Positions 15,696 to 50,859 of a stretch of 64,000 nucleotides of DNA are shown here, piece after piece. A model generated the notes under the pieces. The model did no database searches. It was not told the DNA's origin and worked only from the letters and a program-made list of their open reading frames with translations. Numbering within the stretch: the stretch's first letter is position 1; each line of letters starts with the position of its first letter. The DNA lies in NCBI RefSeq assembly GCF_036365525.1, contig NC_090399.1:31032430-31096429 (forward strand). The letters run 5' to 3'. Origin of the DNA: Heterodontus francisci. Lineage: Eukaryota. Both the position numbers and the translations under genes were made by a program.

Positions 15696-16322
15696 CATCC
15701 CGTCAGCGATATGTGGTCAATGATTCGGTTTGCTGGCTGAATTCGAGTCAATATGAATTGTGCATTTTTTCAATCATGTGCCAAGTGAAAGGATTACTTT
15801 GTAGTTCCGCGTGAAAGCAAGGTCGTGTAATAAAAAGTGAAATTCTTTGTCATTTCTTCAGCACTTTAATATAATAAAACTTAGTCAACGATTAGTAGTT
15901 CCCTATAAATCCCATTCTTTCCAAACGTCGACGCTGTCTCCATATCTTTTATATCTGGCCTGTTATATTTATCTCCGAATGCACAGTCTGTTCAGTGACG
16001 AGTCAGTCATATATTTCGTTTAGCACATTTAAGACAGACGTGACTGCGGTGCATTTTTTTTCTCCGGTCGAGTTTGAAATAATTTGATTTTGCAAATTCT
16101 CCACGCATTCAATTTCAGCTACCCGGTAAAACTAAAGGAAAGTGAATTACAACTGAAATCATTTCGAAACCATAACTTATAGATTCAGGCACTTGCAAAG
16201 GGAGGAATAAATTAAAATAGATATTGCTAATTGTCGGGATGGTGCGCAATTGTTTTCATTACGTATCATGCACATCTCCACGCTTACCATTCGATTGATA
16301 ATTTTCTCTTCTGATTCTGCAG

Positions 16323-16418
16323 TTCTGGTCCTCAACTGACTTAATGCCCACAACCGCGCTGACACGATGAATTTCAGCCATGTTATTGCTCCTATTTGGA
16401 TAACGACCATGATCATTA
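16323..16418 (+). pseudogene. NKp30-like paralogue B, leader exon (ATG at 16367)
   Basis: Acceptor ttttctcttctgattctgcAG, short 5'UTR, then MNFSHVIAPIWITTMII+A and donor GTAAGG (phase 1), ~1 kb upstream of a V-like exon. Confidence 0.6.
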
Positions 16419-17431
16419 GTAAGGAACCACTTTATGTGATGCCGGTTTCCAATTGGAAGATGTGAAGTACAACGAAAAATATAGCAACCTACACTTGTAG
16501 TGCTTTGCTGTATTGCTTCATTATCAAATTCAATGACTCTTAGATCTTAATGATGGATAGCTGGATACATAAATAGGCGCTAGTTAAAAAAAATCAATGG
16601 TACCCAATAGACAGCTTTCCAAACTTGAAATAATTCATCTAATGAAGAAATGTGCTGAGTTCAAATGCATGCACACATAATATAACTGATCCATTATTTG
16701 TAATAACCCCACCCGGAAGTCTATCCTAAATCAATGGCCCAAACTTACAAGAAACCAAATCAACATTTTGAAATGATAGACACGAGCAATTTCTTCACGC
16801 CGTATTCGCATTCCTCTTAATTCTTATTTCTGTCGTGATATGCAAATGGTGTAACGGAGCAATTATAAAACGCTAGCACAGTGTTAAAATATAAAGCCAT
16901 GATCATGTCGTTTAACTGTGCTAAGCTTCTAAGTACACGGATTAGCTATAGATAGGAACCTAGGTTCAGCTTTGTTTTCGCTCTGGGACTGGACTGGAAA
17001 GGGTGCACAGCCGAATAACGATACCCTTTCATAGGGTAAAGAGATGAGACGGGAGATAAGACAAGCAAAGCCTAAGCGTTTCAGTCTTGAAATAAGGTAG
17101 TTTAGAGGGACAGGGTAGAAACTTAAATGAAATAATCTAGATAAAGTGCAAGACAATTATTATTTCAAAGCCCTGAAAGTAGAATCAGATCGATCAATGG
17201 AAAATAGTGGAAAGGAAATTTTACATTTTAAATTAACAGTATGTGTTCAAAATAATAGAAACTTGCAGTAATTCATACAGCGAACAGAGGTTAATATTGG
17301 GTCGACTCAAAATGCAATTAAATGCGATGGTGGGAGTTAATGCAACAAAGGTGTGACCATTGATGGGCTGAAGGGCATTTTTCATCATAGACTTTTTAAC
17401 TCCATTATTAAGTTAGGTCTTTTAACCTTAG

Positions 17432-17773
17432 TGCTACGCTAGATTTCACCCGGGCAATATGCAATCAATGTCACTGCATTGAAATCCGTGTTTTCATAAA
17501 CATCTTTGAATAATGTATCCTGAAAATTGCCATTTTTCAGATTAGGGGAACGTGTTCATCACTCAATTTTTAATTTTAAAGTCTCAAGGAATCCTTTAAA
17601 CACCGCGAGCTTTCCTGCCTGATAAAGAAAAAATAATCCCGAGTGCAAAGTATCTTACCCTACTTTGTATCTTGTTTATCCAACGCCAGCAGTTACCGGG
17701 TTCTATTTATGCAAAGTGGAGTTTATGGGAATCGGTGTAACATATGGAACCGGGACCACAGTAATCATGAAAC
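17432..17773 (+). pseudogene. NKp30-like paralogue B, disrupted VJ-type exon
   Basis: 3' part reads YPTLYLVYPTPAVTGFYLCKVEFMGIGVTYGTGTTVIMK then phase-1 donor GTTTGT, homologous to gene A SGTYYCKVEYVTYGEKYGPGTNLTV. The same frame has stops at 17440, 17497, 17521 and 17620-17625 and no recognisable B-strand Cys or C-strand Trp. The 5' boundary is uncertain (17417 or 17432). Confidence 0.7.
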
Positions 17774-18214
17774 GTTTGTTATTTATCATTTCTCCCCTAA
17801 AAGCTGCTCTTGGCGGCATTAACTAGCGAAACCGCACCATGTTTTTGGTGACATTCCTGCCTGTGCTCTTTCAACACAATCCTGAGCCTGGTTCAGGCAA
17901 ATGACCCAAGGCTGTTCGTGGGCGCAGGAAAATAACTACAGCTTGCTAAATTTTGGTCCGCTAGTACTGTTACGGTTATTTGCGCTTAAAATGGCAGCTG
18001 ATCCTCCCCTTTGGATTATGGATCGGTGGATTTGAATGCAGAAATATGCTATGGGCGGAAACACAAAGTAAGTATCGTCGCCTGTTGCATGTCACGCCCG
18101 AAATTCAATCAGGATAACAATAACGGGTGGGGATTATAACGAGCGGTCGATTCGATCCCGCCGGTTTTGGAACCAACTTCCACGATGAATTACGACCTCG
18201 ACATCATGGAATTA

Positions 18215-19300
18215 TACAACACAGAATGAGGCAATATAATCCAAAAGGGGGGCAGGAACAGAGGAACCTGGGTGTGTATGTGGACAAATTGTTGGAGGTG
18301 GTAGGGCAGTTTGAGAAAGTGGTTAAAACCCATACACGATTCTTGCTTTATACATGGAGGGATAGCGTGCAAAAGCAAGGAAATTATAATGAACCTTCTC
18401 AAAACTCTAGTTCAGCTTCAACTGAAGTATTGTATCTAATTCTGGGCAATGGACTTTAGAAAGGATGGGACGGTATTAGAGAAGGTGCAGAAAGGATGTG
18501 CGAGAATGATTCCATGGATGGGGAATTTCAGTTACGTAGATAGATTGGAGAACCTAGCATTGTTCTTCTCAGAGAAAAGAAGGTTGAGAGATTTGATAGG
18601 TTCAAAAGTCATGAGGAGTCTGGACAGAGTAGATAGAGAGAAACTGTTCCCATTAACGGAAGGGTCGAGAACGAAAGGACACCAATTTAGGTGATTGGCA
18701 AAGGAATTAAAGGCGACATAAGGAACAGATTTTTTACAGAGCGGAGTGGTTAGGATCTGGAATGGACTGCCCGAAAGGGTGCTGGAGGCATATTCAATCC
18801 AGGTATTCAAAACTGAATTGGATAAGCAGCTGAAGGAAAAATAATGCACGTTTACGGGGAAACGGTGAGGACTGAGACTAGCTAAGTTGTACTTGCAGAG
18901 AGTTAGCACAGGATTGAGGTCCGAATGGCCTCCTTTTGTGCTGCGACCGTTACATGATTCTTTGATTCAACTCATCATGCTTGTGACGGCTCTGTGAATA
19001 AGCAACCAATTAATCTCACTCCGCCACTCTTGCCCTATAGCCCTGCAAGATATTTCCTTTTCAAGTTGAGATCCAATTCCCTTTGAAAGTTACTATTTAA
19101 TCTATTTCCACCACCCTTTCAGGCAGTGCATTCCGCATCAGACAAAAACAAATCTGGATTTATTTCTGATTCCTGCCAGTGAAAGCAGTTGCTTCTTTAC
19201 CAAAAGCTTTCAAAAACTTTGAACACCTCTATTGAATCTAACCATAACCTTCTCTGCTCTGAGGAACAATCCCAGCTTCTCAAGTCTCTTCCGATAACCG
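18215..19300. mobile_element. Tail-to-tail CR1 3' fragments (+ ~18215-18970; - ~18975-19300)
   Basis: Decayed CR1 ORF2 C-terminal motifs on opposite strands. Confidence 0.7.
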
Positions 19301-19859
19301 AAATACCTTGTGCTATTGCAGTGACTGCCTTTTGAATGGGGTTTATTCAAAGTTTTGACGTGAGTTCTAACATGAAGTGCCCAGAAATGGACACAAAAAT
19401 CGATATCTATGGGTAGCTCACATCATCTGCAAAGATAAGGATAGCTTTCATACAGCATAGATGACTGACATGAAGTTGCGCAATTTGCCTTTATTATGTC
19501 TGCTGGTAATATAAACAGGTATCAACCGCACGTGTTTATTGCTATCTCTGATGCGTGGGTATCTCTAGAGAGAGACATGGATGGGGGGTGAGAAGATGAA
19601 ACTGCAAGGAGTGGGGCAATAAGCAGGATGCGAAGAAACAAGTCTTCATATTTGATTATTGCTGCGGAGACACATCCGGTGGTGATGATAAAATGGCGTA
19701 GATGTGAGGGTTTGCTGCTTGGGTGGTAATTAATTGAATGAAAAACGAAGGAGTTATTTAGGGGTGAGCTATTTTGCTCTGGCAGGTGACTTTCCCGGCA
19801 GGGAAAATGAACATCGAGCCCTAAGAGTGTATTCGCCTCCTTCCCTTGCTGTTTACAAT

Positions 19860-22210
19860 AGAACCTTAGAAAAATTATGACACAGAAGGAGGCGATTCAG
19901 CCCGTCGTGTCCGCGCCAGCTGCAGAAACTAGCCGCCCAATCTAATCTGACCTTCCAGCACCGGGTCCATAGCCTTGCTGGTTACAACACTTCAGGTGCA
20001 TGTCCAGCTACCTTTAAATGAGTTGAGGTCTTCTGCCTCCAGCACCGTTCCTGGCAGTGAATTCCAGAAACCGATCAACCTCTGGGTGAAAAAGTTTTTC
20101 TTCATGTCCCGTCTAATCCTGCTACCAGTCACCTTAAATCTGTGCCCCCGGTAATTGACTTCTTCCCTAGGGGAAACAGGTCCTTCCTTTCTACTCTATT
20201 TAGGCCCCTCATAATTTTGTACACCTCAATTAAGTCACCCCTTCGCCTCCTCTGTTCTAAGGAAAACGACCCTAGCCTATCCATTTTTTCCAAATAGCTG
20301 CAACTTTCGAGCCCTGGCAACATTCTTGTAAATCTCCACTGTACTCTCTCCAGAGCAATTATGTCCTTTCTGTAATGTGGTGACGAAGAACTGTACACAA
20401 TACTCCAACTGTGGCCTAACCAGCGTTTTATACAGCTCCAGCATTATATCCCTGCTTTTGAATTCTATACATTGGCCAATAAAGGAAAGCATTCCATATG
20501 CTTTCTTCACCACTCTATCTACCTGTCCTGCCACCTTCAGGAACCTGTGGACATACAGTCCAAGATCTCTCACTTCTTCTACCCCTCTCAATATCCTCCC
20601 GTTTATTGTGTATTCCCTGGCTTTATTTGCCCTCCCCAAATGCATTATGTTACACTTATCTGGATTGAATTCCATTTGCCACTTCCCCGCCACCTCAGCC
20701 AAACTATTGATATATTTCTGGAATCTATTGCTAGCCTCTTCACTATCAAATACACGTCCAACTTTGGTGTCATCAGCAAATTTCTCAATCATGCTTCTCA
20801 CATTTAAGTCCAAATGATTAATATATATATACCACAAACAGCAAGGCACCCAACAATGAGCCCTGTGGAACACCACTGGAAACAGTTTTCCATTCGCAAA
20901 AACATCAGTCGACTAGTACCCTTTGTTTCTTCTCCCTGAGCCAGTACTGGATCCAATCTTCGATATTCCCCTGTATCCCATGGGTTTTCATTTTACTGAC
21001 CGGTCTTCCATGTGGTACCTTGTCAAATTCCTTCGTAAAGTCCATGTAGACCACATCCGCTACATTACCCTCATCAATCCTCCATGTTAATTCCTCAAAA
21101 AACTCTAATCAAGTTAGTAAGACATGACCTTCCCTTAACCAATTCATGCTGACTATATCCCTGATTAATCCGTGCCTTTCTAAGTGGCAGTGTATCCTTT
21201 CGCTCAGAATTGATTCTAATAATTTACCCACCACCAAGGTTAGACTGACGGGCCAATAATTACCTGGCTTATCCCTCACACCCTTTTTAAACAATGGTAC
21301 AACGTTCGCAGACCTCCAACCACCTGGTACCTCCCCTGTATCTAGTGAAGATTTGAAGATGATCCTTAGCACATCCTCTATTTCCTCCCTGGCTTCCTTT
21401 AGTAACCTGGTATGTAATCCATTCGGCCCTGGTGATTTATCCACTTTCAAGGATGTCAGACCCTCTTGTACTTATTCTCTCATTATGCTTATCGTATCGA
21501 ATATTTCACACTCCTTTTTAACTGCAATGTCAGCATCAACACTCTCCTTTGTGAAGACAGAGACAAAAAAAACTCATTAAGAACCCTGCCCACATCTTCA
21601 GCATCTACAGATAAGTTCCCTTGTACATCCCTGATAGGCCCTACCCTTTCCTTAGTTATCCTCTTTCTCTTAATGTACTGATAAAACAGCTTCGGAATTT
21701 TCTTGATTTTACCTGCCAATAATTTTTCATGTCCTCTCTTTGCTTTTCTAATTTCATTTTTAACTTCACCCCTGGTCTTTCTATACTCCTCTAAGCTTTC
21801 TATAGTATTAAGACTTTTGTGATCGGAACAAGCTTTCTTTTTTCTGCATTAACTCACCCTGTAAGCTTCTAGATAACCAGGGGGCTCTAGATTTGGCAGT
21901 ACCATCCTTTATCTTAGTGGGCACATGCCTACACTGTGCCTGTAGTACCTCGCTTTTGAAAGTCTCCCACTGGTTTGCCACTGATTTTCCTTCAAGTAAC
22001 TGTACCCAGTCCACTTTTGCCAGGCCACCTCTCAGTTTCGTAAACTTTGCCTTTCTCCAATTTAAAACTTTTGCTCCTGCTTTATCATTGGCCTTTTCCA
22101 TGATTATGCTAACACTTACTGCATTATGGCCACTATCTCCAAACTGGTCACCCACTGTTACTTCATCCACTTGACCAGCTTCATTACCAGAGACAAAATC
22201 TAGAATTGCC
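19860..22210 (-). mobile_element. CR1 LINE in the V-TM intron of paralogue B
   Basis: KSPGPNG, ANVVPLFKKG, KFADDTKVG, LVRPQLEYCVQF. Confidence 0.92.
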
Positions 22211-22259
22211 TGGGACTAGGAAGAGATATGGAGAGTTTAAGAGTTGTTCTAACATTCAA

Positions 22260-22417
22260 AAAATGACAGAACAGAACATAAGACAACGAACAAGAAAGAA
22301 GCAAGCTTCTTCAGCGACGTCCAGACATTGTGGTCTGTTCGTGCAGTAGTGATAGCTTTACTGGGCATTATTGGAGTTATCATCGCTGCTTGTTTCCATC
22401 AGAAGAGGCAACGGTAG
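22260..22417 (+). pseudogene. NKp30-like paralogue B, stalk/TM exon with Arg and almost no tail
   Basis: Reads NDRTEHKTTNKKEASFFSDVQTLWSVRAVVIALLGIIGVIIAACFHQKRQR*. TLWSVRAVVIALL aligns with gene A ILWYIRAGIIVAL. The expected acceptor looks mutated (ttcAA instead of ttcAG). Confidence 0.7.
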
Positions 22418-26787: not shown

Positions 26788-26882
26788 TCAAAAATTTGCA
26801 TGATATAAATAATTGATTCTGTCATTTACATAAATGTTGGGGTCATAACTGTAGCAGTAAGGGTGTACATCAGGTCTTGTAG
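26788..26882 (-). CDS. Gene A predicted terminal coding exon (YVN motif)
   Basis: Acceptor tttagcttttcAG, phase 1: (A)TRPDVHPYCYSYDPNIYVNDRINYLYHANF*. Followed by ~630 nt of unique AT-rich sequence and an AATAAA. Confidence 0.5.
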
Positions 26883-44080: not shown

Positions 44081-44622
44081 AACAAAGCAATACTTGTATT
44101 TATTTAGCTTTTGGTAATAGATAAAACACAGCAACAGGAACAATAAATCAAGGAAGCATGCCTAGCATAACAAAATCAAAATCTAATAACTTTAATAAAT
44201 AGAAACGAAATGAAGTAATTTTAATAATTTTAAAACAATAAATCTTAAGGCCTGGTTACCCACCAATGAACTCAATTTCTTCGTAGATTTCTTCGTAGGT
44301 TTGCTCGATCTTTCTAAAAAAAAAGGAAATTAAATAAAACATTTGCAAGTGTTTGAGGGATGAAATAGATGTATCTTAAAATCGGTTAGGGTTCTATTTA
44401 CCAACCTTGACTTTAGCAATGGGACAAATCTGTAATGAACTGATGGCAGAAAGGGAGAAAAAGGTGATTAAATTAAATTTCAGGATTGGTTTTGTACTCT
44501 GAAAGCAATTAATTCTGCAGTCACTACATTTATGTATATTGAAATTTATGTACATATGATAACATGTGCCTTACAAGTGCGATTCTATGATTTTTTCTTT
44601 AATTTTAATTCAATGACCATAC

Positions 44623-44736
44623 CGCTGATGGGGCAGTTGTGCTGAGAGAGGACTATCCCAATAAGGATCAATGCAACTATTATCCCTGCTCTGATGTACC
44701 AAAGAATCTTCGTGCCATATGCTTGATCTAAGGAGG
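44623..44736 (-). CDS. NCR3: NKp30/NCR3-like receptor gene A, stalk/transmembrane exon with charged Arg
   Basis: Acceptor ttctggtttttttcAAG, donor GTATGG, 114 nt, phase 1/1. Encodes SLDQAYGTKILWYIRAGIIVALILIGIVLSQHNCPIS; the RAG motif at the TM start matches NKp30 LLLRAG. Confidence 0.85.
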
Positions 44737-50484: not shown

Positions 50485-50859
50485 AGATTGGTTTGTCAGA
50501 ATTAGAAAAAAAGTTCTTGCTTGCTACTGTAAGGTTGGTCCCTGGTCCATATTTTTCCCCATATGTCACGTACTCCACTTTGCAATAATACGTTCCGGAA
50601 TCATTCAACTTGGTGTCTGTTATTTTTAATGAGGCATCTTTCCTTGCTTTGAAGGCCTCCGCTCCTGCTGAAAACACACGTCCTCTGTACTGTGACGTTT
50701 TATTGGATACTTCAGTTCCACCCTGGATGTTTCGGTACCATTTGTATGCGCTTATCCCGGTTGGACCATGATATGTGCAGTGTAGGTCCACAGTTTCGCC
50801 TTCAGATGTAATAATCAAGGGTGGGCTCTGAATCACGGTGATATTTCCAAACGTTAGTG
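50485..50859 (-). CDS. NCR3: NKp30/NCR3-like receptor gene A, VJ-type Ig V-set exon
   Basis: Acceptor ttttctatttcataacAG, donor GTAAGT, 375 nt, phase 1/1. Canonical V-set residues (LHC, YKWYR, DSGTYYC) plus J-like YGPGTNLTV in the same exon. GTEVSNKTSQYRGRV and YYCKVE resemble NKp30 GKEVRNGTPEFRGRL and YVCRVE. N-glycosylation sequons NIT, NKT, NDS, NLT. A weaker upstream GC donor (also phase 1) cannot be excluded. Confidence 0.92.

What the first reader, a model, noticed from the sequence alone, without database searches (positions are those of the whole stretch)
16323..22417. Hidden convergent paralogue: short-tailed NKp30-like pseudogene absent from the ORF track
Seen: leader, V 3' half (GFYLCKVEFMGIGVTYGTGTTVI) and Arg-containing TM exon occur in correct order and phase on the + strand, facing gene A. 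The V exon has several stops and the TM acceptor looks mutated. The TM reading frame ends HQKRQR*, the classical adaptor-dependent form. Inference: the locus is a birth-and-death cluster whose members share V+Arg-TM but differ in tail architecture, like paired receptor families.
Basis: partly seen in the sequence, partly recalled or inferred. Interest (0 to 1): 0.7.

Follow-up and report, generated by a model that had tools for sequence, protein, structure and literature searches.

The report
Shark NKp30 paralogue gutted by deletion
This is a broken copy of a known shark immune-receptor gene (NKp30 family): one clean deletion removed three quarters of its ligand-binding domain and its last exon has no good splice site, so it is likely a dead, once-activating receptor and an ordinary casualty in a cluster that keeps gaining and losing genes.

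Summary
Leader (16323-16418), V remnant (17690-17773) and Arg-containing TM/short-tail exon (about 22260-22417) lie in order and phase on +, facing gene A. The V exon has no stops. It is only 84 nt long because a 255-nt in-frame deletion (85 codons, strands A-E, 3-nt microhomology) joined the intact acceptor straight to the F strand. The stops lie in intron 1. The TM exon lacks a good acceptor (5/17 pyrimidines; 11 or more in 14 of 16 other TM exons). The gene groups with a bamboo-shark NCR3 whose V is intact (92/94 on 45 columns), in a subfamily whose members with a known TM have a neutral TM and mostly tyrosine-motif tails. It is therefore likely a lost activating partner. The birth-and-death cluster holds (26 V exons, 11 broken), but only 5 of 17 TM exons carry Arg. 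The family is published, and this scan noted similar shark clusters and broken members on other DNA several times. Ordinary; interest low.

The parts
16323..16418 (+). Leader exon (ATG 16367), strong acceptor and phase-1 GTAAGG donor
   Evidence: 11/16 identical to leader of bamboo-shark NCR3 P0015; acceptor 14/17 pyrimidines
16419..17689 (+).
   Evidence: Stops at 17440, 17497, 17521, 17620, 17623; no V A-E homology above shuffles
17673..17696 (+). Conserved V acceptor (tandem CAG-CAG) plus first 7 exon bases, ending in the 3-nt microhomology at 17694-17696 = deletion junction
   Evidence: 20/24 nt identical to L002's V acceptor; score 32 against 19.5 for the next of 24 V acceptors; 13 of 2000 shuffles reach it anywhere in 1276 nt
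17690..17773 (+). Residual V exon, 84 nt (81 from the second CAG), stop-free, phase 1-1: exon start fused to F and G strands after a 255-nt in-frame deletion
   Evidence: Long-gap alignment to L002; six subfamily proteins all have the same spacing across the missing part; nhmmer E 3.3e-11
17774..17779 (+). V donor GTTTGT, weak
   Evidence: The only GTT at this position among 26 V exons; intact paralogues also use non-consensus donors such as GTCCAT
18234..19156 (.). Interspersed repeat in intron 2
   Evidence: Up to 11 overlapping matches in 664 kb
19858..22208 (-). Old LINE fragment ending about 50 nt before the TM exon (CR1-like: label from recall)
   Evidence: Up to 44 overlapping matches; longest matches 65-71% identical; RT-like ORFs
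22260..22417 (+). Stalk/TM/short-tail exon with Arg at 22340-22342 and stop in the same exon; no good acceptor (CAA at 22257-22259, weak in-frame AGs ending 22274, 22298, 22301)
   Evidence: no second copy in the genome search
50521..50859 (-). Gene A V exon (intact; GC donor), the convergent neighbour
   Evidence: Pfam V-set E 2.5e-17; best PDB hits NKp30, E 6e-12; ends
44623..44736 (-). Gene A TM exon with Arg
44264..44439 (-). Gene A predicted tail exons 44439-44406 and 44313-44264, in frame, two YEEI motifs
   Evidence: prediction from splice sites and frame; no transcript seen

Best explanation
This is a shark NCR3 (NKp30-family) gene whose V exon has lost 255 nt in frame and whose TM exon has no good acceptor, so it is likely a dead pseudogene of a formerly activating receptor. 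Shown: leader, acceptor, F-G strands, Arg-TM and a stop in the TM exon survive in order and phase; 85 codons, with the B-strand Cys and C-strand Trp, are gone. Inferred: the intact ancestor was a single-VJ-domain, short-tailed receptor that signalled through an ITAM adaptor bound by the TM Arg, as human NKp30 does (PMC6514059), and was the activating counterpart of the neutral-TM, tyrosine-motif member L002, whose V belongs to the same subfamily. Inferred: a deletion between two copies of a 3-nt word (end-joining repair or slippage) removed strands A-E, so no Ig fold or ligand binding is possible, and the downstream splice sites then decayed. Because the reading frame has no stop or frameshift yet and the F-G piece is as close to bamboo-shark genes as intact L002 is, the loss is probably not very old.
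For: Junction: acceptor context 20/24 nt identical to L002, the same paralogue that best matches the 3' piece, and the match ends exactly at the F-strand start. A-E strands absent: frameshift-aware profile score reached by 35 of 60 shuffles; L002 V 5' DNA against three stretches reached by 300, 214 and 284 of 300 shuffles. TM acceptor 5/17 pyrimidines, against 11 or more for 14 of 16 other TM exons. Tree: sister to P0015 (bamboo shark GCC38509, V intact) at 92/94, subfamily 100/100. No closer intact copy in this genome: best match to P0015 is L002 at 59%, among 150 of 279 candidates scored. 11 of 26 cluster V exons are also broken. TM belongs here by position: no other V exon between 31.014 and 31.083 Mb, the upstream gene L004 has its own TM, and intron 2 without repeats is about 1.2 kb, like L002's 1.1 kb.
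Against: The three exons still give an open frame when joined through any of three TM starts, so nothing stops translation if splicing occurs. Leader sites and V acceptor are good (14/17 and 12/17 pyrimidines). The TM type of the intact bamboo-shark relative is unknown (P0015 ends at the V donor), so 'formerly activating partner' rests on this locus alone. The tree uses only 45 residues, placed by hand on P0015's columns. The microhomology is read from a paralogue, not from the true ancestor. Only one individual covers the junction.
Confidence: 0.85

Rival explanations
1. The gene is still spliced and makes a V-less membrane peptide of about 85-100 residues (leader, F-G hairpin, stalk, Arg-TM). 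It could not bind ligand but could occupy ITAM adaptors and dampen activating relatives.
For: Deletion is in frame and spares both exon ends; open frame through the TM; no stop or frameshift in about 90 codons; Arg retained.
Against: TM acceptor far below the other TM exons; weak V donor; one in three deletions is in frame by chance; an unpaired Cys and no fold would likely send the product to ER degradation (general knowledge); no relative with this architecture among 160 proteins fetched, and the TM and V-tail searches of the protein collection found nothing (weak searches).
Confidence: 0.06
2. The locus is a chimera or a chance neighbourhood: leader and V come from the L002 subfamily, and the Arg-TM exon was taken from, or left by, a gene-A-type gene, so a V-plus-Arg-TM receptor of this subfamily arose by exon shuffling or never worked.
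For: V and TM point to different relatives: V to L002/P0015, TM to gene A. All five subfamily relatives with a TM behind this V type (P0016, P0022, P0156, P0003, P0021) have a neutral TM. The TM acceptor is poor and a LINE ends 50 nt before it. Earlier scan notes report such hybrids in other sharks (unchecked).
Against: TM DNA similarity to gene A is not above shuffles (289 of 1000), so any transfer would be old; the subfamily's own TM (P0022) ranks third of 63; spacing matches a normal V-TM intron. This rival changes the history, not the verdict that the copy is dead.
Confidence: 0.07
3. The deletion is an assembly error or a private allele, and horn sharks normally carry the intact gene.
For: Only one individual covers the junction; the one other sample had 4 reads and none past 17454.
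Against: Contigs of two runs span 16200-17900 in one piece with no difference, joint or loose end; the poor TM acceptor is also in the run contigs. These runs may be the assembly's source.
Confidence: 0.02

Closest known systems
Shark NCR3 (NKp30) multigene family: nurse-shark NCR3 QTT61898 (P0016), bamboo-shark GCC38509 (P0015) and GCC38504 (P0022); Kinlein et al. 2021, PMC8273117 (title seen in reference lists only; content recalled)
   Same: Split leader, single germline-joined VJ exon end with Cys and G-x-G-T motif, single TM exon; falls inside the P0016/P0015/P0022/L002 clade at 100/100.
   Different: V reduced to 28 codons; Arg-TM and short tail where the subfamily's relatives with a known TM have a neutral TM, mostly with tyrosine-motif tails.
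Human NKp30 (NCR3)
   Same: One IgV plus TM arginine that binds CD3zeta/FcRgamma; MHC-linked; NCR3 is a pseudogene in most mouse strains (PMC6514059, passages). Gene A's V has NKp30 as best PDB hit.
   Different: Single-copy in humans with tail variety from splicing; here a cluster of 26 or more V exons with tail variety spread over genes. Ligand and adaptor binding untested in sharks here.
Paired activating/inhibitory receptor clusters (KIR, Ly49, SIRP, CD300; recalled)
   Same: Related ectodomains on either charged-TM short-tail or neutral-TM tyrosine-motif back ends; frequent pseudogenes; activating members often lost.
   Different: Different IgSF family; the pair here (finding and L002) is 0.9 Mb apart and only about 76% alike in the surviving V DNA (62 of 82 nt), so it is not a recent matched pair.

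Membership tests
Shark NCR3/NKp30 family | V sequence groups with named NCR3 genes | tested here: met
   Clade with nurse-shark NCR3 P0016 and bamboo-shark P0015/P0022 at 100/100, on 45 residues
Shark NCR3/NKp30 family | V and J-like G strand in one germline exon | tested here: met
   Acceptor, F-strand Cys and G-x-G-T motif in one exon 17690-17773
Shark NCR3/NKp30 family | Complete IgV domain (B-strand Cys, C-strand Trp, F-strand Cys) | tested here: not met
   85 codons deleted; Pfam V-set no hit. Filed as a pseudogene of the family, not as a working member
Shark NCR3/NKp30 family | Leader, V and TM exons in order with phase-1 introns | tested here: met
   TM acceptor is degraded
Shark NCR3/NKp30 family | MHC linkage | not tested
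   Stated for NKp30/NCR3 in PMC10751288 and PMC12227049 (passages); an earlier scan note places L002 beside C4 (not checked here)
Activating NKp30-type receptor | Basic TM residue and short tail without tyrosine motifs | tested here: met
   Arg 22340-22342, stop at 22415 in the same exon
Activating NKp30-type receptor | Binds an ITAM adaptor and a B7H6-like ligand at the cell surface | not testable with these tools
   Needs expression and co-precipitation; ligand binding is excluded for the deleted form by loss of the fold (inference)
Paired receptor family | Members with related ectodomains but opposite back ends | tested here: met
   Finding (Arg, short) and L002 (neutral TM, two Tyr motifs) share a V subfamily; 5 of 17 TM exons Arg, 11 without a basic residue
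Paired receptor family | Opposite signalling shown in cells; shared ligand | not testable with these tools
   No functional data
Pseudogene | Disabling lesion with an intact relative elsewhere | tested here: met
   Deletion, poor TM acceptor, intact V in P0015
Pseudogene | No functional transcript | tested here: inconclusive
   No usable RNA data for this locus

The most novel reading that the evidence does not exclude
The deletion cut the V exon down to a clean, in-frame, J-like mini-exon (only the CDR3-equivalent loop and G strand) and the gene still makes a V-less Arg-TM peptide that soaks up ITAM adaptors: a decoy born from an activating NKp30 in one step, tuning a shark paired-receptor system.
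Probability: 0.06. Interest if true: 0.6.

Novelty: new member of a known kind. Interest (0 to 1): 0.2.

Why it matters
As it stands it matters little: one more dead gene in a published family. Its use is as a data point. It marks the horn-shark orthologue of a bamboo-shark gene with an intact V, suggests that this species lost the activating partner of an inhibitory-type NCR3, and adds to the evidence that shark NKp30 genes are organised like paired receptors. It also shows an annotation trap: intron sequence in frame with a shortened exon can look like a stop-ridden exon. If the mini-exon form were expressed it would be an unusual adaptor decoy.

Tried and rejected
A full-length, in-frame V exon at 17432-17773 with five stops: looked plausible by eye and length (342 nt) but its 5' part scored z at most 1.24 against 23 paralogues. 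A DNA match of the 5' part to gene A's V (21 of 1000 shuffles) was the best of 46 comparisons and is dropped; the frameshift-aware version was reached by 33 of 40 shuffles. A V 5' end at 16680-16760 split off by an insertion: not above shuffles. An inverted V 5' part: no match on the minus strand. The apparent E-strand match at 17662-17693 is intron sequence that happens to align. Similarity of the sequence upstream of the ATG to P0015's annotated N-terminal extension: 167 of 2000 shuffles, not used. First tree misaligned the leader and was redone by hand (rows P0131, P0135, P0037 left out). First TM-acceptor scan used the wrong phase and was redone. Protein-collection searches with the TM piece and the V piece found nothing (short queries, weak). 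Expression: no RNA holder listed; three guessed-RNA contig sets did not cover the exons; no evidence either way. ESM Atlas was unavailable. No structure prediction was run: 28 residues cannot form an Ig domain. Kinlein 2021, Ohta and Flajnik 2015 and Flajnik 2012 are not held.
Full report
Setting. The window is G000:C29:31032430-31096429 of a 6.0-Gb genome. Proteins identical to neighbouring genes, on a contig of the same length, are named Heterodontus francisci (horn shark) by NCBI. Gene A (V exon 50859-50521, minus strand) has Pfam V-set E 2.5e-17 and human NKp30 as its four best PDB hits. A search with its V found 72 matches in the genome, the best ones clustered at C29:31.0-31.5, 31.9-32.0 and 14.8-15.4 Mb. 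I fetched 600 kb around the first two groups and did not analyse gene structures in the 14.8-15.4 Mb group.

What is in the sequence. A leader exon at 16323-16418 ends in a phase-1 GTAAGG donor, and 11 of 16 residues match the leader of P0015, a bamboo-shark protein that UniRef names NCR3. A profile of 23 V exons matches only 17695-17775 (E 3.3e-11). A TM frame with Arg at 22340-22342 ends HQKRQR and stops at 22415. Its best match is gene A's TM (first of 63 candidates, z 5.8), and a genome search found no second copy.

The V lesion is a deletion, not stops. Read upstream in frame, the V piece meets five stops, but that upstream sequence shows no V homology in any frame or strand: z at most 1.24 against 23 paralogues, 35 of 60 shuffles reach the frameshift-aware score, and 214 to 300 of 300 shuffles reach the DNA scores. 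The closest paralogue in this genome is L002 (C29:31.959 Mb; 62 of 82 nt, next best 51 of 25 others). The 24 nt that end exactly where F-strand homology begins (17673-17696) are 20/24 identical to L002's V acceptor and first exon bases. No other of 24 acceptors scores above 19.5 against 32, and 13 of 2000 shuffles reach that score anywhere in 1276 nt, without asking that it end at the junction. A long-gap alignment gives one gap of 255 nt with the same 3-nt word at both ends in L002. Six subfamily proteins have the same spacing across the missing part. So the exon is 17690-17773, stop-free and in frame, and has lost 85 codons with strands A-E. The stops are intronic.

Other lesions. The best in-frame acceptor of the TM exon has 5 of 17 pyrimidines upstream; 14 of the other 16 TM exons have 11 or more, one has 10 and one doubtful candidate has no in-frame AG. 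An old LINE ends about 50 nt upstream. The V donor is GTTTGT, weak, though intact paralogues also use odd donors. Joined through any of three TM starts the frame stays open. Contigs of DNA runs match both regions with no difference inside the exons; they may be the assembly's source, and the single other sample did not cover the junction.

Relatives. In a 27-row tree with the finding's 45 residues placed by hand on P0015's columns, it is sister to P0015 (SH-aLRT 92, UFBoot 94) inside a clade of P0022, P0156, nurse-shark NCR3 P0016, catshark P0003 and L002 (100/100); gene A lies outside. The placement leans on a shared three-residue longer leader, and hand placement favours P0015; in the F-G piece alone P0022 and P0156 are closer (18 of 26 against 15). 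P0015 has a complete V with both cysteines but its record ends at the V donor, so its TM is unknown. No closer intact copy exists among the scored candidates in the horn-shark genome (best L002, 59%; 150 of 279 scored). The five relatives with a TM behind this V type have no basic TM residue, and four of them show tyrosine-motif tails (P0016's record ends earlier). A search of the 90% collection with P0015 added only P0156.

The cluster. 26 V exons in 664 kb; 15 pass a simple intact-frame pattern and 11 do not (some are tandem V exons of one gene). Of 17 TM exons, 5 carry Arg, 1 doubtful one Lys and 11 no basic residue. Gene A combines an Arg-TM with predicted tail exons holding two YEEI motifs. 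So birth-and-death and mixed tails are supported, and 'members share V plus Arg-TM' is not.

How it worked and died. Shown: exon anatomy, deletion, poor TM acceptor, family placement. From the literature: human NKp30 is one IgV plus a TM arginine that binds CD3zeta/FcRgamma, and NCR3 is a pseudogene in most mouse strains (PMC6514059, passages). Inferred: the ancestor was an adaptor-dependent activating receptor, the counterpart of inhibitory-type L002; a microhomology-flanked deletion removed its binding domain; splice sites downstream decayed. The frame has no stop yet and the F-G piece is no further from bamboo-shark genes (15-18 of 26) than L002 is (14 of 26), which points to a fairly recent loss. 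I give this 0.85; a V/TM chimera 0.07; an expressed V-less peptide 0.06; an error or private allele 0.02.

What is known. NKp30 as a non-rearranging VJ gene in the MHC is discussed in PMC10751288 and PMC12227049 (passages); the latter lists eight nurse-shark NCR3 accessions. Kinlein et al. 2021 describes the shark NCR3 family; I saw only its title in reference lists and recall that it reports eight divergent subtypes linked to the MHC. PMC12272517 was seen as passages; PMC10450919 and PMC3964593 gave reference-list hits only. No supplements were read. Seven full-text searches showed no paper on this locus in their listings, but the key papers are outside the library, so this does not show it is unpublished. 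This scan's own notes report paired-type shark NKp30 clusters and broken members on other DNA at least eight times (unchecked) and nothing near this window.

Verdict. A real, correctly spotted NCR3-family pseudogene with a misread lesion; a new member of a known kind; interest 0.2.

Noticed in passing
window 50520-50519 (-): Gene A's V exon ends in a GC donor (GCAAGA) where most cluster V exons have GT; either a GC-AG intron or a damaged donor.
   Followed up: partly
window 44439-44264 (-): Gene A appears to combine an Arg-TM with a tyrosine-motif tail (two YEEI in a short exon), a mixed activating/signalling design; later tail exons and its leader were not found. A candidate terminal exon with tyrosines starts near 26882 (-).
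   Followed up: partly
G000:C29:30.98-31.02 Mb against 31.92-31.96 Mb: An inverted duplicate block: L002-type tail exon, an opposite-strand broken V and the L004/L003 gene occur in mirror order; the copy near the window keeps the L002-type tail exon (30981967) but no V was found for it from 30.93 Mb on.
   Followed up: partly
G000:C29:31.35-31.48 Mb; P0001, P0002, P0004, P0005, P0007: Some NCR3-family genes carry two to five tandem VJ domains (P0002 maps to three V exons at 31.476-31.479 Mb), unlike single-domain NKp30.
   Followed up: no
G000:C29:31014412 (L004 gene): The annotated proteins P0011/P0153/P0154 skip a neutral TM exon present in the genome at 31014412, so the records show a TM-less form with a tyrosine-rich tail.
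   Followed up: no
G000:C29:31920786-31920905 (+): A TM-like frame with Lys resembling the finding's TM (second of 63) but with no in-frame acceptor and no V exon in the 40 kb upstream; an orphan or chance.
   Followed up: partly
G000:C29:14.8-15.4 Mb and C34:4-14 Mb: A second NCR3-like cluster 16 Mb away on the same contig, and a large group of more distant V exons on C34.
   Followed up: no
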